Source: Methanobacteriota archaeon
GTDB taxonomy: Archaea; Thermoplasmatota; Poseidoniia; Poseidoniales; Poseidoniaceae
Length of the DNA: 37,500 nt
Direction: 5' to 3'
NCBI GenBank assembly: GCA_018666575.1
Contig: JABIYX010000018.1
Location: 1 to 37,500 of the forward strand
Shown: in pieces, positions 1 to 18,235 of the stretch
Layout of the letters: each line of letters opens with the position of its first letter
How positions within the stretch are numbered: the stretch's first letter is position 1
Notes under the pieces: generated by a model
Databases searched by the model: none
The model's input: the letters and a program-made list of their open reading frames with translations, nothing else
What the model was told of the DNA's origin: nothing
Position numbers and translations under genes: made by a program

Positions 1-627
1 GCAAGATCTTACAACAACATGGGGTATTTGTACCGCAGAAAGAATGACAAAAGCAAGGCGTTAGCCGCATATTCGGAAGTAGAAGCAATTCTATCAAATG
101 ATCAATCCCTCCTTGGAGCGCAAATCATTCTTGGCAGAGCCTTGCTCGATTTGGGAGAAGTTGACCGTGCGAGAAAGCATGCATTTGAAGCATTTGAGAG
201 AACTGACGAGGGTGATGACCTTCTTCTACACGCCCGTGCTCAAGCCCTTCTGGGTCGTTATCATGCGAAGATGAATGATTCAGAAACCTCACTGCATCAT
301 TATTCTGAATCATTAAATGTCATGTCTGATGCCGGCGACCCTGTTTCTTTAGTTGAAATTACAATTTTACTTGGAGAGGTTCTCGAAGACAGCGGGCGAA
401 GTGAAGATGCTCTGGAGCGATATCGAGAGGCTCTCATTATTGCAGAAGCCAATGACTTGAGAATGCAAATTGGTGAATTACTTTCAAAACTTGGTGGCGT
501 TGCTCCAGATCGGCAACGTCGAATGGAGTATTTGCAACGTGCGTTGGCTGTCTTCCGTGAATTAGGTGCTAGAACACGTATGCGAGAAGTACAGGCTCAA
601 GTTCATGCTGCTGTTATGGGCCGCTAG
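1..627 (+). CDS. TPR-like helical repeat protein, probably 5'-truncated by the window edge
   Basis: Frame 1 is open from nt 1 (first ATG at 19) to TAG 625-627. The translation consists of A/L/Y/R-rich helical units (ALAAYSEVEAIL, ARAQALLGRYHAKM, ALERYREALIIAE, YLQRALAVFRELG) typical of tetratricopeptide-like solenoids. No catalytic motif seen. Confidence 0.55.
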   Translation, partial: ARSYNNMGYLYRRKNDKSKALAAYSEVEAILSNDQSLLGAQIILGRALLDLGEVDRARKHAFEAFERTDEGDDLLLHARAQALLGRYHAKMNDSETSLHHYSESLNVMSDAGDPVSLVEITILLGEVLEDSGRSEDALERYREALIIAEANDLRMQIGELLSKLGGVAPDRQRRMEYLQRALAVFRELGARTRMREVQAQVHAAVMGR

Positions 628-1094
628 AACATTGGACGGTCCAATTCCAGAGTGATTGTTCCTTCATGATGGACCACCCAGATGTACTCGACGCCAGCAA
701 GTTCGACCATACCAGAGTGCGGTGCTCCACCTGTGCCAGAGAGTGAACGTTCAGTGTCAAGTTCCCCCCCTCCGTCATACAAAATCAACCTGGTATCAGT
801 TAGTTCGAGGGTAAATTGAGATTCATCAGCTTCAGTTGCTCGCCAGTAAACTCGCTCTGCATATGATGTATTGTCGATTCGACTTGCAGTATCAGTTCGC
901 TCAATTGCAGAAGCAAGATCGTTCATGTTTGCATCGATTGCTTCCTCGTTCCATCGTTCACGAGTTGCAGTTTCGATATCATAAATCCAAAGACTGAACA
1001 TAGTGAGGAGTAATACTCCCAATAAAAATGTGAATACATATCCAAGTTCAGTTGCTGCTGCTTCAGTTCTGCGTTGAATCTGTGATTGTCTCAA
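624..1094 (-). CDS. Small class-III-signal (type IV pilin-like) protein, third gene of the pilin-like trio
   Basis: 156-aa ORF. TTG start (1094-1092) lies 4 nt after a perfect SD GGAGGTGA (1106-1099) and overlaps the TGA of the upstream gene (TTGA), which indicates translational coupling. The N-terminus is a charged segment plus a hydrophobic helix (RRTEAAATELGYVFTFLLGVLLLTMFSLWI). The rest has no domain I recognise. Contains a G7 run (764-770, coding DGGGE). Confidence 0.55.
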   Translation of the reverse strand: MRQSQIQRRTEAAATELGYVFTFLLGVLLLTMFSLWIYDIETATRERWNEEAIDANMNDLASAIERTDTASRIDNTSYAERVYWRATEADESQFTLELTDTRLILYDGGGELDTERSLSGTGGAPHSGMVELAGVEYIWVVHHEGTITLELDRPMF

Positions 1095-3280
1095 GCAATC
1101 ACCTCCGCTACATAGGCGTCAAGGGATGAAATCTGCAGAGAGAATTGAATGGGCTCTCCTGCAGTATGCCAAATTGCTTCTGAAGTCCCGTAACCTGGAT
1201 CTGGAACCCAACCCACATAATCGGTTAACAAGTCAAGTCGACCAGGATATATTGTCCAATCAAGACTTGATTCTAGGCCATCTGTTGATGCGAGAGCAAT
1301 CGCTTCACCATAGGGGTCTGCCCATCCTCTACGAACCTCATAGGCGATGTCACTTGCAAGGCTTGTTCTCTTTGAGAGTGTTACCTCCATCAAGAGTTTT
1401 CCACTTCCAACTGCAGAGTCAGAGGTTGGGTGGAGCGATGGAATCGTTGCTGCAAAACGAGGGCCTGGACCTCCACGATCTGATGGAGATACAATCACGG
1501 TGGGATTATATTCGGGATGATTTGTCACAACAGCCCCTCCAGTCATAGCAACTTCCATTCCTGTTATCGATGATTCAAAGGCGTAGGTGAATCGAGAAAT
1601 TTGCATAATCCAAGCACTGCCTATTGGTGTATATGGCTCCTCAATGACCATGCCATACATTTCCATGTGGACACTCGCAGGATAGGCCCCTGTTTGCCAT
1701 GCTGTTTGCATGTCGATGATACTACGTCCACCCATACTTTCCCAAGGCATCTTCAAATCTACCCATCCAGAAGCGGTAACACCAACCTCAACACATCTTC
1801 TTTCACCATCATGCATGGCTTGAATCAAACCATTCGTTCCATTTGTGGCAGTGATGTACATGCCGTATCCTTCGGTTGTGTTGAGGTACACGTTCTCATT
1901 GTCAAGAGTCATTTCAATTGTAGTGTCTTGATTAAGAAGAGTGTTATTTGTTGCTAAGTTTGAGGCATTGAAAAGGGTCTGATGTCCGTTGGCTCGAAGT
2001 TCAAGATCGAGGTTCTCTGTTGTAATGACGTGGAATTTCTTACCAGATTCCATGCCTGTATCAACTGCGCCGAGATGGAACGCACCGTTCGCTTCAGAGT
2101 CGCTCTGCCATTGAATTCCTACAGGCAAATCAGATGATATTGAAGCGGCTCCATCGATTCCAGATGGGGGCCATTGAACCTGGCCAGAACTCATCCCTGG
2201 AAGAGTGATGCCATTCCCTCTCCATGTAGCAGTAGCAGGTGCAATGTTTGGATTTGTTAGAACAATGTGTCCCGGTTGAGATGGCGGTATGAATGATGTG
2301 CCGTGGAGGGTACCTGTCGTACTCTTCCAAGCGGTTGCTCCTTCTAATCCATTTAATGAGAGCATAAGTTGTGCATCTGCGGTTGTTGTGAGGTGAATAA
2401 CTTGAGGGGAGTCTAATGTCAAAGACTTTGACCAAGATGTTTCAACATTGATCAATTCTGACGGAACTGCAACTTCAGTAAAAGAACCGAATTCTCCGTT
2501 CCCGTTTACCATGATGAGTTCATCTGAAACAATGTTCAATTCCACTGTTCCTTGAGGCAAAGGTAAAGCCCATGAACGACCCTTTCCGTTTGCACCTGCG
2601 TCACTTGCATGTATTTCAGTCGAGCCAGTGTTGTTTTTCATCCAGTATACTTCAAGTTCCTGAGTGGATACAATTTTGAAATCATCTCCATTAAGATCCC
2701 ACTGCGTGACGTCATCCACAAATAATTTCGCTGTTTGAACAACAACTTGACCTTGCAGCAAATCGATCTCAATCGGTCCTAGTGGGAAACTTAGTCCCGG
2801 CTTGGTTGTGAGTATCACGGTGTTGGCCCATGATGGTGCTGTGTAATGGAACGGCCGGTCAGGGCCGAGACGCATGTCTGAGAAACAGACAGAAGTGGTT
2901 GTCGATTCAGGGTGACGCAATTGGAGTTCATCATCAAAGTCGATCACGTTTCGAATTCTAAAGGAATGATCTTCTTCCCATGTTGACGAATACCACATCC
3001 CAGTACGCACCGCATCCCACTCGAGGGATCCGTCGACAGGGACAAATTCTTGTGTCACCATGTCACCTGGCATGCCTTGTTCTGCTAAGGTGGTTGTTTG
3101 TTGGTTGAATTGTGTCATCTGAGCCGCCATATCATGACGCTCAATACTTCCTTCTAATTCCTCGATCACCGGTATCATTGTAACCATCATGATGCTGATG
3201 ATTGAGAGGACTCCTCCAAACAAAAGGACTGTAGCGATTGCGGCGGAGACCGCTTCTTCGTTACGCTGTAATTCGTTCAC
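1091..3280 (-). CDS. Large (729 aa) protein with a pilin-like N-terminal helix; putative pilus-associated adhesin or minor pilin
   Basis: GTG start (3280-3278) lies 4 nt after SD GGTGGTGA (3292-3285) and overlaps the upstream TGA (GTGA). The N-terminus MNELQRNEEA/VSAAIATVLLFGGVLSIISIMMVTMI resembles a class III signal plus pilin helix. The remainder is T/S/N/G-rich with no further TM segment and no recognisable catalytic motif. Confidence 0.55.
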   Translation of the reverse strand: MNELQRNEEAVSAAIATVLLFGGVLSIISIMMVTMIPVIEELEGSIERHDMAAQMTQFNQQTTTLAEQGMPGDMVTQEFVPVDGSLEWDAVRTGMWYSSTWEEDHSFRIRNVIDFDDELQLRHPESTTTSVCFSDMRLGPDRPFHYTAPSWANTVILTTKPGLSFPLGPIEIDLLQGQVVVQTAKLFVDDVTQWDLNGDDFKIVSTQELEVYWMKNNTGSTEIHASDAGANGKGRSWALPLPQGTVELNIVSDELIMVNGNGEFGSFTEVAVPSELINVETSWSKSLTLDSPQVIHLTTTADAQLMLSLNGLEGATAWKSTTGTLHGTSFIPPSQPGHIVLTNPNIAPATATWRGNGITLPGMSSGQVQWPPSGIDGAASISSDLPVGIQWQSDSEANGAFHLGAVDTGMESGKKFHVITTENLDLELRANGHQTLFNASNLATNNTLLNQDTTIEMTLDNENVYLNTTEGYGMYITATNGTNGLIQAMHDGERRCVEVGVTASGWVDLKMPWESMGGRSIIDMQTAWQTGAYPASVHMEMYGMVIEEPYTPIGSAWIMQISRFTYAFESSITGMEVAMTGGAVVTNHPEYNPTVIVSPSDRGGPGPRFAATIPSLHPTSDSAVGSGKLLMEVTLSKRTSLASDIAYEVRRGWADPYGEAIALASTDGLESSLDWTIYPGRLDLLTDYVGWVPDPGYGTSEAIWHTAGEPIQFSLQISSLDAYVAEVIA

Positions 3281-4317
3281 CCGTTCACCACCATCCGGCG
3301 AACGTCGATTTCTAAGGAGAGGGCTAAGTCTTGTGTTTCAACTGTGAATCCATCAATTCCACTTGCTCTTTGATACGGTGAAATACCAACGAATTCATCA
3401 AGTGTACCCGATGCTCGGTTGAGAGTATAATCTGTGAGCCAAATTTCGTGATACTGAGGGTCGACAATGGAATGGAGGGTGTTTTTCACAACGACTCTCA
3501 AATTGTATGCCTCTCCAGTGAAAAGCTGAATTGGGCCTGTTGATTCAACCTTGAATCCAACATTGGGCCCGTTGCCTAAAGACTCGCTGAGTTGAACATC
3601 GGTAAGGACCATCGAGAGTCGTGTTGTGCCATCGACAAGCGTGTCTAGGCGAAGACGAGGTGCTTTTTCTATTTCCCAAGATGTGCTTGGATCTTTGGAG
3701 ATACGGGCATCGTTAATCAATACGATCTGGTTGAGTCCGCCATCAATATTGGTGCTAATACTCAGACCTGATAACACAAAGCGAGCCCATCGATGAACGT
3801 GAGTACCGCCTTCGTTGTACATGTCTACGATAAGGTGGGAGTCGCTGGTCAAATTATGTTCAATGACAGTAAACTCAAAACTAGATTGAACGTCAAAGGT
3901 AATTGAATTCGTAGGGTTTGTAATCACAACTGAAGTAACGGATTCATTGATCGATAAGAAACGGATTGAACTGCTGTTTATTTCTTCTACCTGAACCACT
4001 TCATAGGGTGTTAAATCAGCTGATAGCACCCATTCCTCAACCAATTGAACTGGATTGATTGAAGAGGCTTGCAATGAAAGTGCTTGGCGAGTTCCGGTGC
4101 CATTAGGGGCATCTCCTACGACGTCAAGTCGGTCTTCAATACGGTCTGCGATGTTGTTCGCACTGTTCCAGTTTGTATTGTCGTGAAAGGCTACAAGGTA
4201 TGGGTTCAGGAATACGAATACGCCACCCATGATGCTAACGACCATTGCCAACATCATGATGACGCCGAGAATTTCACTCACTGCTTTTTCTTCATCATTT
4301 CGCTCTCGTCGCTGCAT
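3277..4317 (-). CDS. Archaeal type IV pilin N-terminal domain protein (first gene of the pilin-like trio)
   Basis: The longest ORF begins at GTG 4338. In-frame ATG 4317-4315 lies 5 nt after GAGGGGGGG (4331-4323, SD-like), so I call that start. The N-terminus MQRRERNDEEKA/VSEILGVIMMLAMVVSIMGGVFVFL matches the archaeal pilin N-terminal consensus (..R[GA]VSPVIGVILMVAITV.., PF07790/DUF1628 type), with K at -2 and A at -1 of the putative prepilin peptidase site. The roughly 300-aa mature part has no recognisable domain. Confidence 0.65.
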   Translation of the reverse strand: MQRRERNDEEKAVSEILGVIMMLAMVVSIMGGVFVFLNPYLVAFHDNTNWNSANNIADRIEDRLDVVGDAPNGTGTRQALSLQASSINPVQLVEEWVLSADLTPYEVVQVEEINSSSIRFLSINESVTSVVITNPTNSITFDVQSSFEFTVIEHNLTSDSHLIVDMYNEGGTHVHRWARFVLSGLSISTNIDGGLNQIVLINDARISKDPSTSWEIEKAPRLRLDTLVDGTTRLSMVLTDVQLSESLGNGPNVGFKVESTGPIQLFTGEAYNLRVVVKNTLHSIVDPQYHEIWLTDYTLNRASGTLDEFVGISPYQRASGIDGFTVETQDLALSLEIDVRRMVVNG

Positions 4318-4384
4318 CCATTCCCCCCCTCTTGTCACTTGAGCATCTCGCCTGCATTTAGGGATTGACCTGCTGTTTATTGAT

Positions 4385-5284
4385 TCATAGCAATTCCCTT
4401 GCTATTCTTTGGATTGCGTTTGTTGCAAAACCATCTCCATCTCGACGGCCTATGAAATGCGAAAAGTGAGGCCCATCTTGTGCAGAGATGTTTATGTCGC
4501 CTTCAAACACCTCATCAATTTCAAACAGAACAGTGGACTCTGCTAGATGTGGTGCATTATTCATTTCCGAAAGGTGTGTTAGGGTAATGCTCCTTGTTTG
4601 ATCAGTACACACCTCTTTCAAGAATTGGCCTGTTTGTTCATTGGACAAGTGCCCTCCTCTTCCAGAAATTCGATCTTTCAATGAACGGGGGTACGGTCCA
4701 TTGAGTAATCTATTGGAATCATAGTTCGCTTCTACAGCTATGTGCTGGCAGCCATGAACATGATGAACAAGTTCATCAGTCCAAGAACCGAGATCTGTGA
4801 TAATCGCTGTTCTTTCTCCTCCATGGCTGGCTACAAAGGCCACATTTTCTGCACCCGAATGAGGAACGGGGACGGGGAGTAACGATGTGCCGTGGGAGAA
4901 TTGCAGCACATCAAGGGATTCGAAATGATGCGTGAATTCTGGTAACAATCCGAGTTCTTGGGATGTACGATGATTCGCATGAACCGGGACTCCCCAGCGC
5001 TTCTGTGCGATGAGTGCACCGCCCCCATGGTCACCGTGGTGATGGGTTATGACGATGGCTTCCAAATCATTCGGACTAACGTCGAGAAGTTTCAATCGCT
5101 TTTCTAATTGCACGCCACTGAACCCTTGATCGACAAGGATGTGGGATGATTCAGTACTTAGAAGAGTGGCATTGCCACGACTTCCAGTGCCAAGGTGCGT
5201 AATTGACAGACCCATCCCAATCAATTTCATGGGATAGCAGGCGGATATTGAATACACCGATTGATTTGTTCCAAAAGTACACAT
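4385..5284 (-). CDS. MBL-fold metallo-hydrolase (COG1235, PhnP/YycJ-like)
   Basis: HxHxDH zinc motif ITHHHGDHGGG. N-terminal ITHLGTGSRGNATLL and ILVDQG strands are typical of this family. No signal peptide. The homologous core begins at MKLIGMG, so ATG 5230-5228 is an alternative start. A 67-nt gap to the pilin-like gene downstream suggests co-transcription. Confidence 0.8.
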   Translation of the reverse strand: MCTFGTNQSVYSISACYPMKLIGMGLSITHLGTGSRGNATLLSTESSHILVDQGFSGVQLEKRLKLLDVSPNDLEAIVITHHHGDHGGGALIAQKRWGVPVHANHRTSQELGLLPEFTHHFESLDVLQFSHGTSLLPVPVPHSGAENVAFVASHGGERTAIITDLGSWTDELVHHVHGCQHIAVEANYDSNRLLNGPYPRSLKDRISGRGGHLSNEQTGQFLKEVCTDQTRSITLTHLSEMNNAPHLAESTVLFEIDEVFEGDINISAQDGPHFSHFIGRRDGDGFATNAIQRIARELL

Positions 5285-5388: not shown

Positions 5389-8300
5389 TTGCGACGAAGT
5401 CAGACAACCTTACTCTCCACTCTCGCAGTAATCGCAGGGCTCCTCTTCATGTCTCAGTTCCCTACGATTTCTCCTGTTTCCAATATTTACCCCGATGACA
5501 CGACTGGTGAAAAACCACCCACTACGGACACCGACGGAGACGGGATTCCCGATGTGCATGAGAATATTTTCGAAGAATGGTTGAACTTCAGCGCAGTTGA
5601 TGGTAGATTCATTTCTATGGAAGGGATGGATAAAGACGATGCTTCTGATGCTAATTTTGATACAGACCGAGATGGTCTGAATAATACTGAAGAATACTGT
5701 TGGCCATATCCTGCAAACTGTAACGATCCTGGTTTCTCCAGAGGCTTAACAGGACTTTTGGATGAAAACGGTGATCGGTTGTATCTTGACCCACGTGTAT
5801 CCGATACTGATGGTGATGGAATGCCCGATGGATTCGAAGCTGCTATGTGTGCTCGAGCCGGTGGTTTTGATATTGTCACACTTAGATACATTTGTCCATA
5901 TTTTGATCCTCTCAACGGCAGCGATTTGACAGATGACCCTGATGAAGATGGTTTTGACGTGAACAGGGACGGATTTATTTCAGTTGCAGAACAGTACACC
6001 TCTCCAGAAGAATATCGCTATGGTTCACCAAGCAATTTCACCACTGAACTAGATGGGCTATGGTGCGCTGCAACCCTCCCTCAAGGAGCAGTCATAACAC
6101 AATGGCCGTACATTAACACTGGAATCAATGCCTCCTTCCAGAACATTCTTCCAGCGTGTACGACCAATGCAACATCTGTTGGCGGCGAAGACCTATGGCT
6201 TGGAACCGACCCTCTACTCGAGGATTCTGACAGATACAGTTGGGATGGGTTTTCTGTTCGCCCCCTCTATCCTTCGTTTGGAGATGGTATGCCTGATGGA
6301 TGGGAAGTACACTTCGGTCTCGATCCATTAAATCGTTCCAATGCTCTTCTTGATATTGATCTCGATGGGTGGGACGTAAATCGTGATGGTGTGGTTTCTG
6401 TTGATGTTAGCCGCACGGAAACTGCGTTAGCGTTGGGGGAGTCATTGTCGAATCTTGAAGAATTTTACATACACAATGACGAAGGGAACACGGTAATGTC
6501 TGGATTGAAAGAAGTTCAGATTGGGTTGAATGATTCTTCTTACTTTAGCTATCCACTCACGTTCAATGCAGTCGAAGACAGCATGGCCATAATGCACCAT
6601 GATGTGCGAAGTATTCTCGTAGAGGATTCAACCACATACGTTCTCACACGATACGGGATGACTGTACTTGATTATGAACTTGGGATAACTCAAGATTACT
6701 GGTTCCCTCAAGGTTTTACAGGCTATGAAGCAATCTTTGTTGAATCTGATTCTGGCCCCCACTCCTTGGCCATTGCAACTTCCCATGGAATGCATGTTGC
6801 AGCGATTCAAGTTGATGGATTTTTGGAGCCGATTGACTCTTGGTCGTCAAGTGAGGCTATCCCTCTTTTCGCATTGGCACAACTTGCTATTGATGGGTCC
6901 TCCCAGCAAATTATTGCTCTTGGGGCGAATGGAGACGGAGCTGTATACGAAGTGACTACAGGTGGTTTGATTTCACAAACGTTCGATCTTGGAATTAATC
7001 TCAAGGCAAGCCTTTCAGAATCCCAGGTTACCGTTACCGAGCTTACCCATGGAACCGTTCCAGGCGGCGGACTTGTGCTTTATGTCGGAACCGAGCGTGG
7101 TTTGATGACTCTTGAATCTGCAACGGGAAGAGATGAGGCGACACCTTCGTGGAGATTCTTTTTCGATCCTAATCCTTCATTGATTCCTAACCGTATCGAT
7201 GATCTTCGTACACTAAACCTCGGTGCTAGCGGCAATCCTGCTGAAGTTCAAGCGTTGTACCTTGACGGGCCAAATGAACAAAATCCTACTGTCTTGTGGA
7301 TTGGAACTCCTTCAGGTTTGCATCGACTCAATTTAGAAATCAATGACATGACTTTTGGTGGACTGCTTGAACATCCTGGCGGAGATGCTGATGAACTTTC
7401 GAAAACCAATAATATCCATTCAATTCTTCCAACTGGAGATGAAATCATCGTAGGTTCATCCGCAGGACTATGGATTCTTGCTGGAAATCATCTCGATGTG
7501 TATGGTCTTCAGACGCAATCCAAACTTCCAGGCGAACTTGCTGCTCTTGCTACACTCGAAAAGAATGGTGAGACATACATACTCGCAGGGGCTGCTCCTG
7601 GTCGCTATGCTAACCTCGAATTGATCGATCCAGGGGCAAATGATTCCGATAGTGATGGTATTCCAGATGGATGGGAAATTGCCTACGGCTTAGATCCAAC
7701 GGATCCATGGGATGCCTTGTTGGATGGAGACGTTGATGGTCTTGATTTAAATCAAGATGGTTCCCTTGACAGATTATGGACCAATCTTGAAGAGTATCGT
7801 TTCATCGCTCGTTCTGAAGATGGCTACAACTCGACGCTTCCAAACCAAAGTGACTCAGACCTCGACGGTCTGCTCGATGGTTCAGAATACTTCGGTTATT
7901 TCCTTGAAGAGACTAATTTTGACTGCTATTACAACCCTCAATTAATCTACAGTTGTGATGAAACACTTGGTGAGCAAGCTCGAACACTCTACACTGCCTC
8001 TAATGCTCTTGATATCGGTACAGACCCAACTGTTTTGGATACCGATGGCGATGGTATGCCAGATGGTTGGGAGATTGAACATCGTCGCTGGATTGGAAAT
8101 TCTTACAATGGGGGCAACAATTGGTCACTCGACCCAACTCGATCTGAGGATGCAGGTTGGGATGCAGATCAAGATGGTCTTGCTAACGTTTGTGAATATC
8201 AATGGTCATTAGTCCGCCTTGCAGGACTGGCAGGAGATCTCTTTGAAGACTATGGTGAAAGTCCTGAATCAGTAGCAACATGGTCAATTCCAGATCCCAA

Positions 8301-11130
8301 TCTCTACGACTCAGACGGTGATAGTTTACCAGATGGTTGGGAAGCAGACAGTCAATGTACATGGTCTCCGCTCCGTGTGGGCGTAAACCCAATGAACGGT
8401 TCGGACGCTTTTGAGAACCCAGACGGTGACGGTTACGACGTCAATAAGAATGGTATTTTGGAACCGAGTGAGATGTTTGTGAACTATCTTGAGTATCATA
8501 TCTCAACCGACCTGTTTTTGAATAATCAAACGCTCTCTGGAATCGAATTACCAAACGGTTTCCAAACAGACTTGTTCAACAACATCAGTGATCTTGGCCT
8601 CCCAGAAGCAAACTTTGCAGAACGAGCGAGTGGTGCAATCCTTGCAGCACAAATCGCTCTTGAAAAGGGTTCATGCGACCCATTTAAGGCTGATACTGAC
8701 GAAGACGGTATGCCAGACGGGTGGGAGATTTGGTTTGCTCGTTGGAACGTACTCGATGACGATTGGACCCTCAACCCAATCCAACCAAGTGACCGATGGC
8801 TCGATGCAGATGATGACGGAATGACAAATTGGGAAGAATATAACTTAATTGACTCCTCCCTTTCTGAAACAAATGCAAATCGTTCGTCTCCGCAGTGGTT
8901 TGTAACAACACTTGGTTCCGCATATGCCTTCCAGCAATGGCCTTCTGCTGCCACAACACAATCTTTTGGAGCATTCATCAGCGAAGACCAATACAACCTT
9001 ACTGGCCCAACTGGTGATCCAAATAATGTCGATACTGACGGAGACGGCATCATTGATGGACTGGAACTCCTCTTTACTGCATGGAATCTCTCGGCTCAAA
9101 CTTGGACGCTAAACCCAGTTGTTTCTGGAGATGGTACATTCGATAGTGATAATGATGGTTTGGTTGATTTGCAAGAGTTTGCACTAGCTACCTCAAACCC
9201 AGAAAACGGTATCTCAGCTCCAGTTGATGCACCTTTGATGCATCTTGATGGGGATGTTCAACAACCGACAAAGAAAGCACAACGTGTGTTCCAAATACTG
9301 ATTTCAAAGGATTCTCGCGGCAAGCGCCTTCTCGACGATTTCAATGCTTGGCAGTCTGGAGAGCCTCCAAACGTATTCATATCCCTCTTGCTCGGAATGA
9401 CCGATCCAACAAATCCAGATACAGATGACGACGGCATGTATGATGGATTTGAATACTGGTTCACATCATGGGATTTGGATGAAAATCGTTGGGGCTTAAA
9501 TCCGCTCATTGAAACTGATGTGAACCTCGATTCTGATGACGATAGCTATGATTGTAACAGGGACGGAACCATCGACCTTGACGAACGTTTCTCGAACTTG
9601 CGGGAATGGGAATCACGTACATGGGGTAAATACCTCAATCGAAGTTCTGTACCTGCATCTGTTGGAATTGTAGACTTTGGTGAAGATGCTATGAATGCAT
9701 ACGCTGAGGAACAGGGCCTTACTCTACTTCAGGCACGACAATCCCTTATTGATGATTTCAAGGCCAAAGGGCCAGAATCGGTAAGCCGAATGAATATGAT
9801 CAACACATACAATGAGAACAACTTCAATCGAACTCTTGTCGGTGTTGCGGACCCTACTCACCCTGATTCAGATTCAGATGGGATACCTGATGGCTGGGAA
9901 TATTGTTACGCACTCTATGGCATGGATAATCCAACTACAGAGGACCATTGGGCTTCAAACCCATTGAATCCTTGGGATGTTAACTATGACGGAGATTCAG
10001 ATGGGTGGTATGGCCGTACTGCTTTCGATGTACCTGCGACTCAAGGTGAATGGGAGCTGCGAACATTTACGCCTTCTTCTCAAGTCATACAACCAGGTAT
10101 CGGCTCTCTTCCGTTTACAAATTGGATGGAATGGGATAACGAAACTCGGCCTGACCTCAATGATAGCGATGGTGATTCAGAAGCGTATGTGACAACACTT
10201 AGCAATGGTCAGGTAATTGAACACTACAAAGATTTCAACCTTACAGACGGTCGTGAGGTCTTCAAATACGGTACTAATCCAGACGATAATGATACTGACG
10301 GCGATATGATCCCTGATTGGTACGAATACGCCAAGGCATGGAATGAAACGAATGATAACTATTCGTCATATCTTCAAATAAGAGTTGTCTGGATCGATCC
10401 TGCTACTGGTGGAGCGTGTGATACATCGACGAATTCTTGCCTCCCTCTATCTCTTGATGCAGGAACATTGCAACGGCCAGATCTTGATTTCACATGGTTT
10501 ACGATGGATCCGCGTGATGCAGTTGATGCGAACTTTGATCCAGACCAAGACGGGAATTGGGATTGTTCCGGAGCTGGATGCGCATACGAACCTTACACGA
10601 ATTTCCAAGAGTATTTTGCAATTACCACAGAGTCTCTTTCTAGCCCGAATGCAGTCCGATTATCTGGTTTAACATTCGAAGGTCAAATTGTCCAGGAAGG
10701 TTGGCAACTTCGTTCGGTTTTGCTTGGTGTAGGCCAATGGGACGAAGGAGTGAGAAATTACCTCAAGATGGATAAATCTCAGAGCAATGATTTCAGATAT
10801 GCATATCTTGTTGATGACAATGACGTTGAATTCCTTGTTCAGGATTCTACGAATCATGTTGTTCATTGTGCAGGAAACCTGACGGATTCTTGGGAGATCT
10901 ATTACACAGGGGCACCGAACACAGCTCCAGTACGTTCCGTAGGAGAGCACGAGTATGGTTGGTACCTTTTGGATTACAATAATGATCACGTTGCAGAAGG
11001 AACCGACCCTATGAAATGGGATACGGATGGTGATTGGATGGTGGACTGGTTCGAAGTTAATGACGACGAACAGGACGGAAGCCGGGGTGAAAGTTCCCCA
11101 ATCCGGTATGATTCACGTCAAACAACTTAG
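5389..11130 (+). CDS. Giant (1913 aa) secreted, highly acidic Ca-binding protein: TSP3 repeat arrays flanking a putative beta-propeller
   Basis: TTG start 5389 lies 5 nt after SD AGGTG (5379-5383). N-terminal signal or anchor is LLSTLAVIAGLLFMSQF. I count about 25 D-x-D-x-D-G-x-x-D-x-x-E motifs by eye, several degenerate (DTDGDGIPDVHE, DTDGDGMPDGFE, DSDSDGIPDGWE, DTDEDGMPDGWE and others). The central region carries G-[TS]-x-x-G-L blade motifs. No C-terminal TM segment. Confidence 0.85.
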   Translation: MRRSQTTLLSTLAVIAGLLFMSQFPTISPVSNIYPDDTTGEKPPTTDTDGDGIPDVHENIFEEWLNFSAVDGRFISMEGMDKDDASDANFDTDRDGLNNTEEYCWPYPANCNDPGFSRGLTGLLDENGDRLYLDPRVSDTDGDGMPDGFEAAMCARAGGFDIVTLRYICPYFDPLNGSDLTDDPDEDGFDVNRDGFISVAEQYTSPEEYRYGSPSNFTTELDGLWCAATLPQGAVITQWPYINTGINASFQNILPACTTNATSVGGEDLWLGTDPLLEDSDRYSWDGFSVRPLYPSFGDGMPDGWEVHFGLDPLNRSNALLDIDLDGWDVNRDGVVSVDVSRTETALALGESLSNLEEFYIHNDEGNTVMSGLKEVQIGLNDSSYFSYPLTFNAVEDSMAIMHHDVRSILVEDSTTYVLTRYGMTVLDYELGITQDYWFPQGFTGYEAIFVESDSGPHSLAIATSHGMHVAAIQVDGFLEPIDSWSSSEAIPLFALAQLAIDGSSQQIIALGANGDGAVYEVTTGGLISQTFDLGINLKASLSESQVTVTELTHGTVPGGGLVLYVGTERGLMTLESATGRDEATPSWRFFFDPNPSLIPNRIDDLRTLNLGASGNPAEVQALYLDGPNEQNPTVLWIGTPSGLHRLNLEINDMTFGGLLEHPGGDADELSKTNNIHSILPTGDEIIVGSSAGLWILAGNHLDVYGLQTQSKLPGELAALATLEKNGETYILAGAAPGRYANLELIDPGANDSDSDGIPDGWEIAYGLDPTDPWDALLDGDVDGLDLNQDGSLDRLWTNLEEYRFIARSEDGYNSTLPNQSDSDLDGLLDGSEYFGYFLEETNFDCYYNPQLIYSCDETLGEQARTLYTASNALDIGTDPTVLDTDGDGMPDGWEIEHRRWIGNSYNGGNNWSLDPTRSEDAGWDADQDGLANVCEYQWSLVRLAGLAGDLFEDYGESPESVATWSIPDPNLYDSDGDSLPDGWEADSQCTWSPLRVGVNPMNGSDAFENPDGDGYDVNKNGILEPSEMFVNYLEYHISTDLFLNNQTLSGIELPNGFQTDLFNNISDLGLPEANFAERASGAILAAQIALEKGSCDPFKADTDEDGMPDGWEIWFARWNVLDDDWTLNPIQPSDRWLDADDDGMTNWEEYNLIDSSLSETNANRSSPQWFVTTLGSAYAFQQWPSAATTQSFGAFISEDQYNLTGPTGDPNNVDTDGDGIIDGLELLFTAWNLSAQTWTLNPVVSGDGTFDSDNDGLVDLQEFALATSNPENGISAPVDAPLMHLDGDVQQPTKKAQRVFQILISKDSRGKRLLDDFNAWQSGEPPNVFISLLLGMTDPTNPDTDDDGMYDGFEYWFTSWDLDENRWGLNPLIETDVNLDSDDDSYDCNRDGTIDLDERFSNLREWESRTWGKYLNRSSVPASVGIVDFGEDAMNAYAEEQGLTLLQARQSLIDDFKAKGPESVSRMNMINTYNENNFNRTLVGVADPTHPDSDSDGIPDGWEYCYALYGMDNPTTEDHWASNPLNPWDVNYDGDSDGWYGRTAFDVPATQGEWELRTFTPSSQVIQPGIGSLPFTNWMEWDNETRPDLNDSDGDSEAYVTTLSNGQVIEHYKDFNLTDGREVFKYGTNPDDNDTDGDMIPDWYEYAKAWNETNDNYSSYLQIRVVWIDPATGGACDTSTNSCLPLSLDAGTLQRPDLDFTWFTMDPRDAVDANFDPDQDGNWDCSGAGCAYEPYTNFQEYFAITTESLSSPNAVRLSGLTFEGQIVQEGWQLRSVLLGVGQWDEGVRNYLKMDKSQSNDFRYAYLVDDNDVEFLVQDSTNHVVHCAGNLTDSWEIYYTGAPNTAPVRSVGEHEYGWYLLDYNNDHVAEGTDPMKWDTDGDWMVDWFEVNDDEQDGSRGESSPIRYDSRQTT
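5527..6405 (+). repeat. N-terminal array of thrombospondin type-3-like Ca-binding repeats (protein-level repeat)
   Basis: DTDGDGIPD, DTDRDGLNN, DTDGDGMPD, DPDEDGFDVNRDG, GDGMPDGWE and DIDLDGWDVNRDG motifs read in the translated frame. Confidence 0.7.
6640..7620 (+). other. Putative beta-propeller domain (two-component-regulator-propeller/Reg_prop-like blades) inside the giant protein
   Basis: Recurrent motifs IATSHGMHVAAI, VLYVGTERGLMTLES, VLWIGTPSGLHRLNL, IIVGSSAGLWILAG and LAGAAPGRYANLE resemble the lWIGTxxGLxr signature of PF07494-type propeller blades. No profile search was possible. Confidence 0.4.
7639..11055 (+). repeat. C-terminal array of bipartite TSP3-like modules
   Basis: The repeated module is [D-x-D-x-DG-(I/M)PDGWE]-[W-rich linker ..W.LNP..]-[D-x-D-x-DG....EY]. 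Examples are DTDEDGMPDGWEIWFARWNVLDDDWTLNPIQPSDRWLDADDDGMTNWEEY and DTDGDGIIDGLELLFTAWNLSAQTWTLNPVVSGDGTFDSDNDGLVDLQEF. The last motif is DTDGDWMVDWFE. Confidence 0.7.
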
Positions 11131-11179: not shown

Positions 11180-14100
11180 ATGAGTGCGAACTTTGTCTCC
11201 CGGCGAACCGTAGCGGCCCTGCTTCTTTCTCTATTTATGGGGATGAGCATGTCTCCATTCAGTGAACTCTGGATTGAAAATGCTGAAGCTGCTGAAGTGT
11301 CACGTCACACATACGAATTTAGTGATGGTACCACGGAATATATCGCTCTCTATCAAGGTGGTAATGCGGATAGTGGAGCGAAAATTTCTCTTCCAAAAGG
11401 TGCTGAAGTAACCGACGTGCAAATGACACTTTCAGGGGCATCTGCCACGGGTTGGTCATCAATTCCAACAACAACTCGGGATCATTGGGTTGCTGGAGAA
11501 GCATCCAATACGGACAATAAGAGCTCAGACCTGACCCTGGCTATGGCAAATGTTAGTCAATCATTCAATCCACACAGCATGGATGAAGATACCAATCCAT
11601 CAAGCACTGCTTGGTTAGATAACGGTACCTATGCAGTTCGACAACCTCACACATCAAACTCCACTGATGCTCTCTTTTCTCAACAGCGCAAGTTGACGCC
11701 TAACTCCTTGAACGCACAAGGGCAAGGCGCTGTTCTTCGTCATCACGATTGGTTGTATCTTTCAACATGGTCTTCTACTTCATTCCACAACATTGTCCAC
11801 CGGTTGTATCCTAACAACGGTACGCGAGAGAGCATCATTACGCTAGATCAAAATGGATGCACCCTCCCTTCAAAGCACTCCTCCTCCTATTATGGCCAAT
11901 ACGGTTTTAGAGATTGGGTCGTAACCGATGATGAACGACTCTTTGCTGTTCTATCAGGGTACAAATACATCCACAGTTCAACAGCTAATACGCTTTATCA
12001 CCGTGTTCTAGAGTTTGATATTTCCAATGAAAATGAATGGACCTGCATAAATTCATACCAACCGCAAGGTAATGGAGATTATACTGGAATCACCTATGAT
12101 CCTGTTGAAGATAAAATTTGGATTTTACACAACCAAAATCGGCGAATACAATCCTATGAACTCGACGATAGCGGGAATCTTGAACGTAGTGATGAGCACT
12201 TTACCTTCCAAACTTCCACCTCTTCAATATGGCAGTGTGGTGTAAGCAATCAACAAGCACGTGGTTTGGAAATGAATGAAACACATTTCTTCATGCGATG
12301 TCAAGACGGTCAATATTACAATGACAGAGATCAACTCGAAGCATGGGGCCGTTCTGGAACTGCAACTGCTTTGATTCCTGAGAACTCTGTTCGAAGTATC
12401 TCCTCTCTTGGCTATGGCCTCTTTTACGATGGGCAGCGATTCTTAACTGTGGATTCAGGATATTCCACATGGTCTAGTACACCTTCATATCACGAATTTG
12501 GTACGAGTTGGACATACAAAACTACGCCTGCGCCAGGGACAACCACATGGCTTGGACCTGTTATCGACACCCCCGAAGACGTTTTGTCAGTGAATATGGA
12601 AACTCTATGGTCAGCTGCTTCAATTGGTGACCGTGTTGACTATTGGGTTTCTGCAGACAATGGTACTCATTGGGTTGCTGTCGAATCCAATACAACAGTT
12701 CATTTCCAGCATCCTGGAACAGAACTCGTTTGGAAAGCAACACTTATTGGTTCAACCGCAGTTTCATGGTGGGTCGATTTAGAATACTCGACTGAATATG
12801 AAACAAGCGGGACGTGGATTTCTCCTCCGAAGCCTACTGGGACGAAGGTTGGCAAAGTCCGTCCTCAATGGACAGCCTCTCAAACTCCAGTAACGTCCAT
12901 CACCGTTCAAGTTTCAAATGACGATGGAACCACATGGCAATCTGCAGAGAACATGGTGGAGACAAGTTTCTCAACGGATGGAGCAGGTAACATACTGCGC
13001 TATGCCGTATCAATGACGACAACAGATCCTTACATTACACCTGTTTTAGACAATCTAGAACTTTTCTACGAGGAAGGTTATCCTGACAAACCAAAAATTG
13101 ACGTTGGATACGATGGCGTCTTCGATTGGAAGAGTATTCTTTTCCTCAATGAATCCTCAATCGATGTAAGCGATGATTCGGTTGTTGGCGTGGATGTTGA
13201 ATTCCAACCTACGCTTGTTGATGCGTTCAATGATTTCATACCAGACAACGGTGATGGGTTTGTCGAAGTACCACTTGCAATTAAAGCTCAAACTTCTGGG
13301 CGTGTGAAAATTACAAACATCGATGTGTCCTACAAGATGAATACACATGCAATCAATGCAGTTTTCGAAGGTGCCATGGCTGCACCTGACGGGATTGCAC
13401 GAAATATGATCATCAAAGTAGCACACGGTGATGAGGTAAATTACGTGACTGAAGTAATTGCTGAACTCAACAATTCAAATGGTCAAAACCCATCTTTCAA
13501 ATGGGCTCAAGGCGACACTTGTTCAACTCTGGATGACGCTGATGGAATCGTACATTTTGATGTCTCAAATTGTTCATCTTCAATTGATAATAATGATGTT
13601 CGAACCATTCGAATCCCAGTTACTGTTGACTGGTCTTGGGATGATGAACAATCAACTGAGGCTATTTTGACAGTCAAAGATTCCTTTGGTACAGCGGTTA
13701 ATAAATGGGATACAGAGAACATGAAACTTCGTGTTGAAAACGATATCCAACTCGATGGATTACAAGTCTTCGACGAAGATGGGCGGCAATTGTTTACTCA
13801 AGATTGGGTGCGTGGAGGGCAAAATATTTCCTTCCTTGGATTAATCCATTTTGAATCCTCTCAACTTTCACCATTGGCAGGCGAGTTTGAACTCCGTGTC
13901 CTTGGACAAAATGTGACTTTCGATGGTGATGCGATCGGACAACCAGTCATTCTTGCTCAGGAATCGAATCCAAGTTTTGGGTCTTACAATTTGACCTTTG
14001 AATCACCAATTGAATCTGCACCGGGCGGGATGATTTTCTATGTTCAAGCCGTTAATCTTCCAAATGGATCCGATTACTCAAATCCTGGATACAACACGAT

Positions 14101-17845: not shown

Positions 17846-18156
17846 TTCTTCTTTGAATTCGACACAATAATCGTAGCATCTCTCCAGGCATCATAAATTG
17901 ACCATAGCCAGAGCGGTATGTAGAGGACGATGGTAAGTGCTAATGGAATCTGGAGTAACGTCCAATCAAATGCTCTTCGATGCTTTCGATTGAAGTGTTG
18001 TCCGAGGAAGAGTCCAGGGATTGCTGCAAGTAGGGCTGCGAAGATAGGTCGAAATGCCCCCCACATGCCAACGCCAAGGAATATTTCTCTCCAAATCTCG
18101 CGAACCATGCGTAATGGTGCAAGTTTGGATTGAGTTGTTGAACTCATAGGCCTCAT
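17842..18156 (-). CDS. Small membrane protein (2 TM), unknown function
   Basis: 104-aa ORF with two hydrophobic segments. The pattern AIPGLFLGQHFNRKHRRA ... LWLWSIYDAWRDA resembles small PGLGQxYxG...DAxxxA membrane proteins. Its stop overlaps the convergent metalloprotease stop (TTAA 17842-17845). No functional inference. Confidence 0.45.
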   Translation of the reverse strand: MRPMSSTTQSKLAPLRMVREIWREIFLGVGMWGAFRPIFAALLAAIPGLFLGQHFNRKHRRAFDWTLLQIPLALTIVLYIPLWLWSIYDAWRDATIIVSNSKKN

Positions 18157-18235
18157 GCCTTGGAGGAAGCATTGGTTTGTGAATCTGTTGCCAACTTTGC
18201 ATCATAATCAAGAACATTCGATGCTACGCCTAGCC

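What the first reader, a model, noticed from the sequence alone, without database searches (positions are those of the whole stretch)
624..4338. Orphan, translationally coupled trio of class-III-signal (type IV pilin-like) proteins, including a 729-aa 'giant pilin'
Three consecutive minus-strand ORFs each begin with a short charged segment followed by a 20-25 aa hydrophobic helix: ..DEEKA/VSEILGVIMMLAMVVSIMGGVFVFL, ..RNEEA/VSAAIATVLLFGGVLSIISIMMVTMI and ..RRTEAAATELGYVFTFLLGVLLL. The first is a good match to the archaeal pilin N-terminal consensus. The genes overlap as GTGA (3277-3280) and TTGA (1091-1094). Each start has a strong SD (GAGGGGGGG, GGTGGTGA, GGAGGTGA), which implies stoichiometric co-translation. 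Two of the three mature regions (about 300 and 700 aa; the third is about 125 aa) are much larger than ordinary structural pilins, and none resembles anything I recognise. No PilB/FlaI ATPase, PilC/FlaJ platform or PibD/FlaK/EppA peptidase is in the window. The trio could be a minor-pilin or tip-adhesin complex, a pseudopilus, or a bindosome-like assembly served by machinery encoded elsewhere.
Basis: partly seen in the sequence, partly recalled or inferred. Interest (0 to 1): 0.7.

Follow-up and report, generated by a model that had tools for sequence, protein, structure and literature searches.

The report
Conserved pilin-like gene trio in marine archaea
Three overlapping genes in a Marine Group II (Poseidoniales) archaeon encode type IV pilin-like surface proteins, one very large, that are kept together across the whole order but sit apart from any pilus motor; they are most likely a minor-pilin or tip-adhesin set of a known kind of archaeal pilus.

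Summary
Three minus-strand ORFs (P1 3277-4317/4338, P2 1091-3280, P3 624-1094) overlap by 4 bp. Each follows an SD-like site and starts with a charged stretch, an A/G cleavage-type residue and a 20+ residue hydrophobic helix.

A FlaFind-like rule picks exactly these three of the 42 window ORFs of at least 100 aa. The window is Poseidoniaceae (MGIIa). The order MBL hydrolase -> P1 -> P2 -> P3 <- wHTH-AAA16-TPR regulator is kept in every sufficiently long locus of about 100 examined. At least 218 GTDB species genomes encode a P1 relative.

AlphaFold models show a 60-residue N-terminal helix followed by all-beta domains, the pilin shape, and no solved fold matches globally. Pfam matches (DUF7289, Pilin_N, DUF7266) are below threshold in the window, but some relatives pass.

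The key result is a distant full-length P1 homolog (hhalign probability 96%). It lies in the gene order P1-like, DUF7289-like, DUF7266, PilB ATPase, TadC, TadC.

So the trio is the pilin set of a euryarchaeal type IV pilus, unlinked here from its motor, an arrangement already known in archaea. I did not test whether Poseidoniales carry the motor or peptidase elsewhere. I rate it a new member of a known kind, of moderate interest.

The parts
3277..4317 (-). P1, a 346-aa type IV pilin-like protein (the ORF is open to the GTG at 4338). Predicted cleavage is MQRRERNDEEKA|VSEILGV... A helix spans residues 5-68, followed by tandem Ig-like beta-sandwiches.
   Evidence: Full-length homology to the first gene of a PilB/TadC locus is shown.
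1091..3280 (-). P2, a 729-aa 'giant' pilin-like protein. Predicted cleavage is MNELQRNEEA|VSAAIATVLLFGG... A helix spans residues 7-67, followed by about 650 residues of all-beta domains. The N-helix and the C-terminal 560-720 are highly conserved and the middle is variable.
624..1094 (-). P3, a 156-aa small pilin-like protein. Predicted cleavage is MRQSQIQRRTEA|AATELGYVFTFLLGVLLL. It is the most conserved of the three and is weakly DUF7266-like.
4282..4317 (-). Charged leader of the P1 class III-type signal, up to the predicted A|V cleavage site.
   Evidence: The -1 residue is A or G in all 84 aligned homologs.
3277..3280 (-). GTGA overlap of the P1 stop and the P2 start.
   Evidence: A 4-bp overlap occurs in 65 of 67 distinct loci.
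1091..1094 (-). TTGA overlap of the P2 stop and the P3 start.
   Evidence: A 4-bp overlap occurs in 61 of 67 distinct loci.
4355..4370 (-). Conserved 16-nt element GGTCAATCCCTAAATG upstream of P1. It is possibly a BRE/TATA promoter or a regulator binding site.
   Evidence: The pattern GGTSAAYNNCTAAATG occurs exactly once per locus, always just upstream of P1, in 80 fetched loci. The window has no other exact copy.
4385..5284 (-). MBL-fold hydrolase, the conserved upstream neighbour on the same strand. A functional link to the trio is unproven.
1..627 (+). 3' part of a convergent 837-aa wHTH-AAA_16-TPR (STAND, MalT-like) putative regulator. Its stop overlaps the P3 stop, and it is a conserved neighbour.

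Best explanation
What it is: the trio is the pilin set of a euryarchaeal ('clade 2', PilB/TadC-type) type IV pilus. In Poseidoniales it has become separated from the motor genes.

Inferred mechanism:
1. The three precursors insert into the membrane.
2. A PibD/FlaK-type prepilin peptidase cuts after the conserved A/G (KA|VS in P1, EA|VS in P2, EA|AA in P3).
3. The hydrophobic N-terminal helices are then bundled by a secretion ATPase and TadC platform encoded elsewhere.

Why a minor-pilin or tip complex: the three genes are translationally coupled, P2 and P3 often use weak GTG or TTG starts, and two of the three are far larger than filament subunits. They therefore most likely form a low-copy complex of roughly 1:1:1. 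That complex would be a priming or tip (minor-pilin) complex whose variable beta-rich P1 and P2 domains act as the exposed adhesin. It would not be the bulk filament.

Shown: the signal-type motifs and their conservation, the coupling, the order-wide synteny, the predicted fold, and homology of P1 to a gene in a PilB-TadC-TadC operon.

Inferred: cleavage, assembly, the tip or adhesin role, and the identity of the motor.
For: - Motif and specificity: only the trio matches the FlaFind-like rule in the window.
- N-termini: they are nearly invariant over relatives of 40-100% identity, and the -1 position is restricted to A or G.
- Closest solved sequences: for the P1 profile these are archaeal pilins, Natrinema PilA2 (8gi2) and a Pilin_N protein (8fj5). 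The match is to the N-terminus only, at E about 0.1.
- Predicted fold: AF2 gives P1 a pLDDT of 85 and P2 a pLDDT of 78, each with a helix of about 60 residues plus beta domains.
- Family links: relatives pass Pfam thresholds for Pilin_N and DUF7289. Many orthologs carry precomputed PF23960 hits.
- Link to a motor: locus L097 has the order P1-like (hhalign 96%, E 2.8e-9, 319 columns), a DUF7289/Pilin_N-like 378-aa gene, DUF7266, T2SSE ATPase, then two T2SSF genes.
- Motif sharing: the N-terminal motifs of P2 and P3 match the second and third L097 genes specifically, R-D-x-E-A-V-[SA]-x-x-V-A-T and A-x-x-E-[LI]-G-Y. DUF7266 is the most frequent weak hit among P3 orthologs, in 10 of 26.
- Coupling: 4-bp overlaps and SD-like sites are conserved, and P3 starts with TTG or GTG in 31 of the 61 loci with the 4-bp P2/P3 overlap.
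- Interfaces: P2 conservation runs opposite to pLDDT (r = -0.65). The invariant N-helix and C-terminal 560-720 are poorly modelled as a monomer, as expected for partner interfaces, while the middle is variable and confidently folded, as expected for an exposed surface.
- Literature: clade-2 archaeal T4P have large (250-550 aa) all-beta FlaFind-positive minor pilins and often use pilins encoded in trans (PMC4858521). All MGIIa genomes carry an archaellum operon with FlaI and FlaJ (PMC6461757).
Against: - The window proteins themselves miss the curated thresholds: Pilin_N 18.7 against 25.2 bits, TIGR02537 18.9 against 20, DUF7289 20 and 16 against 27, and no DUF7266 hit for P3.
- The link to a motor rests on one outgroup locus family (L097/L098).
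- P2 and P3 resemble their L097 counterparts only at the N-terminus and by position.
- No ATPase, platform or peptidase was seen in about 57 kb around the trio or in the +-10 kb flanks of any related locus. I could not scan a whole Poseidoniales genome.
- No major pilin has been identified.
- At 729 aa, P2 exceeds the 250-550 aa range described for arCOG02911-type minor pilins.
Confidence: 0.6

Rival explanations
1. The trio builds its own complete filament. P3, whose mature form is about 144 aa (the size of a structural pilin), would be the major subunit. P1 and P2 would be minor or decorating subunits, and the whole would be assembled by a motor encoded in trans.
For: P3 is of pilin size and is the most conserved of the three, at 57-68% identity between clades against 40-50% for P1 and P2. 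No other pilin candidate is present in the window. In L097, further small proteins follow the motor genes.
Against: P3 is the last gene of a coupled operon and starts with TTG or GTG in about half of species. That does not suit a subunit needed in thousands of copies. Major archaeal pilins are usually stand-alone or first genes (PMC4858521, PMC4371748).
Confidence: 0.18
2. The N-terminal helices are uncleaved signal anchors. The trio would be a membrane-anchored surface complex (adhesin, receptor or envelope organiser) that descends from pilins but no longer depends on a pilus motor.
For: No motor is linked to the trio in any Poseidoniales locus. The trio lies in a conserved island of giant surface proteins, an S8 protease and an STT3/AglB-containing protein.
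Against: The cleavage-type motif is kept with A or G only at -1 across the order, and the helix is nearly invariant. That is more constraint than a simple anchor needs. A P1 homolog lies inside a PilB/TadC operon.
Confidence: 0.14
3. The proteins are archaellum accessory components, as the JGI names 'flagellin-like' and 'FlaG/FlaF family' suggest. They would be stator-like or minor archaellin-like parts of the MGII archaellum.
For: Some orthologs carry those names in JGI. All MGIIa genomes have an archaellum operon, proposed to serve adhesion (PMC6461757). P1 comes close to TIGR02537, at 18.9 against 20 bits.
Against: No archaellin or FlaF/FlaG family appears in the Pfam or NCBIfam scans beyond the shared N-terminal domain. 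The only motor-linked homolog sits beside a PilB3-like ATPase and two TadC genes, not in an arl operon with FlaH. The trio is never adjacent to arl genes in about 100 loci.
Confidence: 0.06
4. The flanking MBL hydrolase and STAND-TPR NTPase form an Avs1-like antiviral system, and the trio is part of it or is cargo.
For: The MBL protein gives weak Avs1a and Apyc1-type hits. The STAND protein gives weak nSTAND6 and PDC hits.
Against: All of these hits are far below threshold and cover only generic motif regions. The block is fixed, core-genome-like synteny across an order, with neighbours 64-98% identical, which is unlike a mobile defence island. The STAND protein has an N-terminal HTH typical of MalT-like regulators.
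Confidence: 0.02

Closest known systems
Pilin sets of euryarchaeal clade-2 type IV pili, e.g. the Haloferax volcanii PilB4-type locus and the arCOG02911 'signature minor pilin' (Makarova, Koonin and Albers 2016, PMC4858521)
   Same: The proteins are FlaFind-type class III signal proteins. They are large all-beta (Ig-like) pilin-like proteins with several distinct pilin genes in a row. A homolog locus has one ATPase plus two TadC genes, and pilin sets can be encoded in trans of the motor.
   Different: In Poseidoniales the set is always unlinked from any motor. P2 (729 aa) is larger than the 250-550 aa range described. The globular parts of P1 and P2 have almost no relatives outside the order: only 111 hits among 1.84 billion representatives for P1. 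arCOG membership could not be tested here.
Pfam DUF7289 (PF23960), DUF7266 (PF23928) and Pilin_N (PF07790)
   Same: The first roughly 70 residues of P1 and P2 align to the start of DUF7289 and Pilin_N. The N-terminus and position of P3 correspond to a bona fide DUF7266 gene in L097.
   Different: The window proteins score below all gathering thresholds. The similarity is confined to the N-terminal helix region.
Bacterial minor-pilin priming or tip complexes (T2SS GspI-GspJ-GspK; T4P FimU-PilVWX with PilY1). This comparison rests on my own knowledge and on PMC4371748 and PMC4858521.
   Same: These are co-expressed sets of several pilin-like proteins, one much larger than a structural pilin. They are proposed to cap the fibre and to carry adhesive function.
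   Different: This is an analogy only. No sequence or fold homology was detected, and the machinery is from a different domain of life.
Methanococcus maripaludis Epd pili and H. volcanii PilA1-6 (PMC4371748)
   Same: Pilin genes are located away from the pilB/pilC genes that assemble them. Minor pilins are needed for piliation.
   Different: Those pilins are small, and the systems have been characterised experimentally. There is no sequence relationship beyond the signal region.

Membership tests
Archaeal type IV pilin-like proteins (class III signal peptide substrates) | A short charged leader, a [KRDE][GA] cleavage motif and at least 20 hydrophobic residues near the N-terminus (FlaFind-type rule) | tested here: met
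   All three match, and no other window ORF of at least 100 aa among the 42 does. The -1 residue is A or G throughout the orthologs.
Archaeal type IV pilin-like proteins (class III signal peptide substrates) | A match to Pilin_N (PF07790) or TIGR02537 at the curated threshold | tested here: not met
   P1 scores 18.7 against 25.2 bits and 18.9 against 20 bits. P2 and P3 have no hit. The ortholog P0482 passes Pilin_N at 28.2 bits.
Archaeal type IV pilin-like proteins (class III signal peptide substrates) | A long N-terminal alpha-helix followed by a beta-sandwich head | tested here: met
   AF2 gives P1 a helix at 5-68 plus beta domains (pLDDT 85.4). It gives P2 a helix at 7-67 plus beta domains (pLDDT 77.7). 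These are predictions only. P3 was not modelled.
Archaeal type IV pilin-like proteins (class III signal peptide substrates) | Cleavage by a PibD/FlaK/EppA prepilin peptidase present in the same genome | not testable with these tools
   No A24 peptidase lies in the window or its flanks.
Archaeal type IV pilin-like proteins (class III signal peptide substrates) | Genomic or functional association with a PilB-type ATPase and a TadC/PilC platform | tested here: inconclusive
   The association is absent from all Poseidoniales loci within +-10 kb. It is present for the distant P1 homolog in L097: T2SSE at 99 bits and two T2SSF genes.
DUF7289 (PF23960) | A Pfam score of at least 27 bits | tested here: not met
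   P1 scores 20.0 and P2 scores 16.1, both at the N-terminus only. Many orthologs have precomputed PF23960 hits, and the distant relative P0543 scores 39.1 bits.
DUF7266 (PF23928), for P3 | A Pfam score of at least 27.6 bits | tested here: not met
   The window P3 has no hit. Ten of 26 orthologs give weak hits, the best at E = 0.006. The third gene of L097, in the same position, scores 33.1 bits. hhalign between them aligns only 27 N-terminal columns.
Archaellum accessory proteins ArlF/ArlG (FlaF/FlaG) | A match to archaellin or FlaF/FlaG family models beyond the N-terminal helix, and location in an arl operon | tested here: not met
   Neither Pfam nor NCBIfam reports such a family at E <= 1. 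No arl genes are nearby in any locus.
Avs1-like (AVAST type 1) defence system | Avs1a MBL and Avs1b STAND proteins matching PADLOC or NCBIfam models | tested here: not met
   Avs1a scores 17-21 bits against a cutoff of 420. Only generic TPR and P-loop hits were found.

The most novel reading that the evidence does not exclude
Poseidoniales may have no dedicated PilB/TadC pilus motor. In that case the trio could be a tip or adhesin complex mounted on the archaellum filament by ArlI/ArlJ. That would explain why MGII keep archaella without chemotaxis genes and appear to use them for attachment. Alternatively, the trio could be a pilin-derived surface complex that has become independent of any motor. 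[quoted passage not shown]
Probability: 0.15. Interest if true: 0.7.

Novelty: new member of a known kind. Interest (0 to 1): 0.4.

Why it matters
Marine Group II archaea are the most abundant archaea in surface seawater and are uncultured, and how they attach to particles and phytoplankton is inferred only from an archaellum operon and thrombospondin-like genes (PMC6461757). This trio is a second, order-wide conserved candidate for surface attachment. Its variable, exposed, very large P2 could equally be a virus receptor. In the papers I could search it is not described for MGII, and public annotation calls it hypothetical. It gives concrete targets for metaproteomics, cryo-ET and heterologous expression. 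It also extends the known archaeal pattern of pilin sets that evolve and move independently of their motors.

Tried and rejected
- **Fold searches:** Foldseek of both AF2 models against the PDB gave only generic Ig, jelly-roll and cupin partial matches, with query-normalised TM-score (TMq) below 0.2. No fold assignment followed.
- **Sequence searches against the PDB:** the P2 and P3 profiles found nothing meaningful.
- **P1 versus P2:** hhalign shows they share only the N-terminal 43 columns, so P2 is not an expanded P1 paralog.
- **Plasmid search:** tblastn of the DUF7289-positive relative P0543 against plasmids, run to find an annotated haloarchaeal context, gave no match.
- **Metagenome scan:** a scan with the L097 PilB returned one locus (L102). 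It has PilB and a fused TadC but no pilin genes, so it gave no second example of the trio-motor link.
- **Upstream MBL genes:** the one in Poseidoniales and the one in L097 are not orthologous, so that shared feature is a coincidence.
- **Defence hypothesis:** PADLOC gave only generic matches.
- **N-glycosylation sequons:** their density in the trio is no higher than expected.
- **Cluster look-ups:** these did not reveal whether the divergent clades are MGIIb, or what organism L097 comes from.
- **Literature:** searches for DUF7289, and for MGII with pilin, pilus or preflagellin peptidase, found no description of this operon.
- **Contig walking:** walking 10 kb to the right of the window found no pilus machinery.
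Full report
**Observation**

The three minus-strand ORFs are present as described: P1 at 3277-4338, P2 at 1091-3280 and P3 at 624-1094.
- The sequence shows the GTGA (3280-3277) and TTGA (1094-1091) stop/start overlaps.
- It also shows the three purine-rich SD-like sites.
- The G-rich site lies 5 nt before the ATG at 4317. Gene callers on ten identical metagenome contigs use that ATG, giving 346 aa, so it is the likelier P1 start.
- Callers often start P3 at an internal ATG (125 aa), which would remove the hydrophobic helix. The upstream segment is nearly invariant in orthologs, and the internal Met is replaced by Ile in one clade.
- A start codon overlapping the P2 stop by 4 bp is present in 61 of 67 distinct loci. 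The 156-aa form is therefore right.

A FlaFind-like rule finds exactly these three proteins among the 42 window ORFs of at least 100 aa. The rule requires [KRDE][GA][ALIFQMVED][ILMVTAS] within the first 60 residues, followed by 20 residues of mean hydropathy of at least 1.6.

**Organism and context**

- Eukaryote/archaeal-type ribosomal protein S13/S15, an archaeosine-type DUF5591 protein and the source names of homologs place the window in Candidatus Poseidoniaceae, Marine Group II a.
- The window and the 10 kb on each side contain no T2SSE ATPase, T2SSF platform or A24 peptidase.
- The neighbours are:
  - an MBL-fold hydrolase upstream on the same strand;
  - two divergent giant surface proteins;
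  - downstream, a convergent 837-aa protein with a weak HTH, AAA_16 and TPR domains (a MalT-like STAND regulator);
  - a 1446-aa beta-helix protein with an ordinary Sec signal;
  - an S8 protease;
  - a 3163-aa STT3-containing protein.

**Conservation**

- P2 has 394 homologs and P1 has 151 in the 5.8-billion-protein index. All are unnamed or called 'hypothetical', 'flagellin-like' or 'FlaG/FlaF family', and all come from Poseidoniales or marine metagenomes.
- A scan of one genome per GTDB species found a P1 relative in 218 species. The best 80 are Poseidoniales where their titles allow assignment; two titles name bacterial bins.
- In the 96 loci scanned by tblastn, the order MBL -> P1 -> P2 -> P3 <- STAND holds wherever enough sequence is present. 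P1 identity in these loci ranges from 100% down to 40%.
- The same order holds in the most divergent Poseidoniales-type locus, L099.
- The 4-bp overlaps and the GGAGGTG-like sites are conserved.
- The N-termini are the most conserved parts. The consensus is ..[AG]|VSE[VI]LGV[IV]M[ML]LAMV.. in P1..R[DN]E[ED]A|VSAA[VI]ATVLLFGGV.. in P2 and ..[AG]|A[AT]TELGY[IV]FTFLLGV.. in P3. The residue before the bar is only ever A or G. That restriction is the signature of a prepilin-peptidase site (PMC4371748).

**Family and structure**

- Curated models are missed in the window:
  - P1 scores 20 bits on DUF7289 (cutoff 27), 18.7 on Pilin_N (cutoff 25.2) and 18.9 on TIGR02537 (cutoff 20).
  - P2 scores 16 bits on DUF7289.
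  - P3 has no hit.
- Relatives pass. Many P1 and P2 orthologs carry precomputed PF23960 hits, P0482 passes Pilin_N at 28.2 bits and P0543 passes DUF7289 at 39.1 bits.
- The best PDB sequence matches of the P1 profile are two archaeal pilins, at the N-terminus only and at E about 0.1.
- AlphaFold2 with family alignments gives P1 a pLDDT of 85.4. It shows a helix at 5-68 followed by tandem beta-sandwiches.
- It gives P2 a pLDDT of 77.7, with a helix at 7-67 followed by about 650 residues of beta structure.
- Foldseek finds no global PDB match for either model. It finds only Ig-like, jelly-roll and cupin fragments with query-normalised TM-score (TMq) below 0.2.
- P1 and P2 share only the N-terminal 43 columns.
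- In P2, conservation runs opposite to model confidence (r = -0.65). The N-helix and residues 560-720 are nearly invariant but poorly modelled as a monomer, while the middle is variable and confidently folded. I read this as conserved partner interfaces plus an exposed, fast-evolving surface.

**The decisive link**

- An exhaustive HMMER search with the P1 profile against 1.84 billion cluster representatives returned only 111 proteins. Almost all are the same family or fragments of it. The P1 globular part is therefore nearly confined to this order.
- Two outliers have canonical archaeal pilin N-termini.
- One of them, P0553/P0571, lies on a 26-kb contig (L097). Its gene order is:
  - the P1-like 392-aa gene;
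  - a 378-aa gene (DUF7289 at 22.9 bits and Pilin_N at 22.3 bits, both sub-threshold);
  - a 171-aa DUF7266 gene (33.1 bits, above threshold);
  - an ATPase with T2SSE (99 bits) and weak PilB3_N and PilB3_C matches;
  - two T2SSF (TadC) genes;
  - two small proteins and a 911-aa CarboxypepD_reg protein.
- hhalign of the P1 family against the 392-aa protein gives 96% probability and E = 2.8e-9 over 319 columns, which is full-length homology.
- P2 and P3 resemble the second and third genes only at the N-terminus. Their lineage-specific motifs match in the same order: RDxEAV[SA]xxVAT.. for P2 and AxxE[LI]GY.. for P3.
- DUF7266 is the most frequent weak Pfam hit among P3 orthologs, in 10 of 26.
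- This layout matches the euryarchaeal clade-2 type IV pili of Makarova et al. Those systems have several distinct pilins, including a large all-beta FlaFind-positive minor pilin (arCOG02911, 250-550 aa), often two TadC genes, and pilin sets that can work in trans with ATPase/TadC modules (PMC4858521).

**Mechanism I commit to**

The trio is a type IV pilin set. After cleavage by a prepilin peptidase, its helices are bundled by a motor encoded elsewhere.

Three features favour a low-copy complex of roughly 1:1:1 rather than the bulk filament:
- tight translational coupling;
- weak start codons (P3 starts with TTG or GTG in 31 of the 61 loci with the 4-bp overlap);
- two subunits far larger than structural pilins.

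The complex would be a priming or tip (minor-pilin) complex with P1 and P2 as the exposed adhesive part. Cleavage, assembly, the tip position and the motor are all inferred. My confidence that these are pilin-type proteins descended from a T4P pilin set is about 0.85. For the full mechanism it is about 0.6.

**Rivals**

- P3 could be the major subunit of a filament of its own (0.18).
- The trio could be an uncleaved, motor-independent surface complex (0.14).
- The proteins could be archaellum accessories, as some JGI names suggest. No archaellin or FlaF/FlaG model matches, and the motor-linked homolog is in a PilB/TadC operon rather than an arl operon (0.06).
- The flanking MBL and STAND genes could form an Avs1-like defence system. 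PADLOC and NCBIfam give only generic hits far below threshold, and the block behaves as core genome (0.02).

**Main gap**

Published work says all MGIIa genomes carry an archaellum operon with FlaI, FlaJ and FlaH (PMC6461757). It also says that archaellum-bearing archaea have at least one further T4P (PMC4858521). Neither statement was checked here for this lineage. The motor link rests on one outgroup locus family, and a metagenome scan with its ATPase found only one further locus, which has no pilins.

**Novelty and verdict**

- The kind is known. Archaeal class III signal, type IV pilin-like proteins are established, as are DUF7289/DUF7266-type N-termini, clade-2 pilin sets, and pilins encoded away from their motor.
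- Four things are new:
  - the order-wide, fixed, motor-less arrangement in the most abundant planktonic archaea;
  - the 729-aa size of P2;
  - globular domains with no detectable relatives or solved fold matches;
  - the fact that this operon is not described for MGII in the papers I could search.
- I rate it a new member of a known kind, with interest 0.4.

Noticed in passing
window 4355-4370 (-), and the same position upstream of P1 in 80 fetched loci: A 16-nt element, GGTSAAYNNCTAAATG, occurs exactly once per roughly 20-kb locus, always between the MBL stop and P1. It persists where P1 proteins are only 40-50% identical. In some clades its ATG is annotated as the P1 start (MIPK...), but in the window's clade that ATG is out of frame with P1. 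It is therefore conserved as DNA and could be a BRE/TATA promoter or a regulator site. In the window, translation from that ATG would give a 20-codon upstream ORF overlapping the P1 start.
   Followed up: partly
window 1091-3280 (P2 residues 11-50 and 560-720): The most conserved parts of P2 are the least confidently modelled by AlphaFold, and the variable middle is modelled best (r = -0.65 between block conservation and pLDDT). The low-pLDDT segments 599-625 and 664-689 contain runs of invariant residues (for example D-R-x-G-P-G-P-R-F-A and Y-x-G-W-V-P-D-P), which suggests partner-induced folding.
   Followed up: partly
window 624-627, and L001 12654-12657: The stop codons of P3 and of the convergent wHTH-AAA_16-TPR (STAND) gene overlap (CTAG). 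This tail-to-tail packing is kept in most related loci. The STAND protein has an N-terminal HTH and could be the regulator of the trio.
   Followed up: partly
L097 13008-17081: An uncultured archaeon has a compact type IV pilus operon with a 721-aa PilB. That protein has a long lysine-rich low-complexity N-terminus (KKGKKG repeats) and a C-terminal zinc ribbon, and is followed by two TadC genes. The organism could not be identified.
   Followed up: partly
window 5389-11130 and 11180-16564 (+): Two adjacent giant acidic proteins (1913 and 1794 aa) diverge from the MBL-trio block. The first has many DxDxDG (thrombospondin type 3-like) repeats and 27 N-glycosylation sequons against about 17 expected. 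The second has an N-terminal signal and a C-terminal membrane anchor. They are conserved neighbours of the trio, and together with the beta-helix protein, the S8 protease and the STT3 giant to the left they form a cell-surface island.
   Followed up: no
window 18155-19222 (+): A single ORF fuses a pyroglutamyl peptidase (Peptidase_C15) domain to a NUDIX hydrolase domain. The same fusion is present in a distant Poseidoniales locus (L014).
   Followed up: no
L051, L054, L066 and L073, between the MBL stop and the 16-nt element: Some clades have a perfect G+C-rich hairpin (CACCCCCCTATGGGGGGGTG) right after the MBL gene. This suggests that MBL and the trio are separate transcription units there. 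The window's clade lacks it.
   Followed up: no
L012 and L013 (long-read assemblies), P2 region: P2 is split into two or three ORFs in these polished nanopore contigs, although the identical P1 and neighbours are intact in L011. These are probably homopolymer assembly errors rather than pseudogenes.
   Followed up: no
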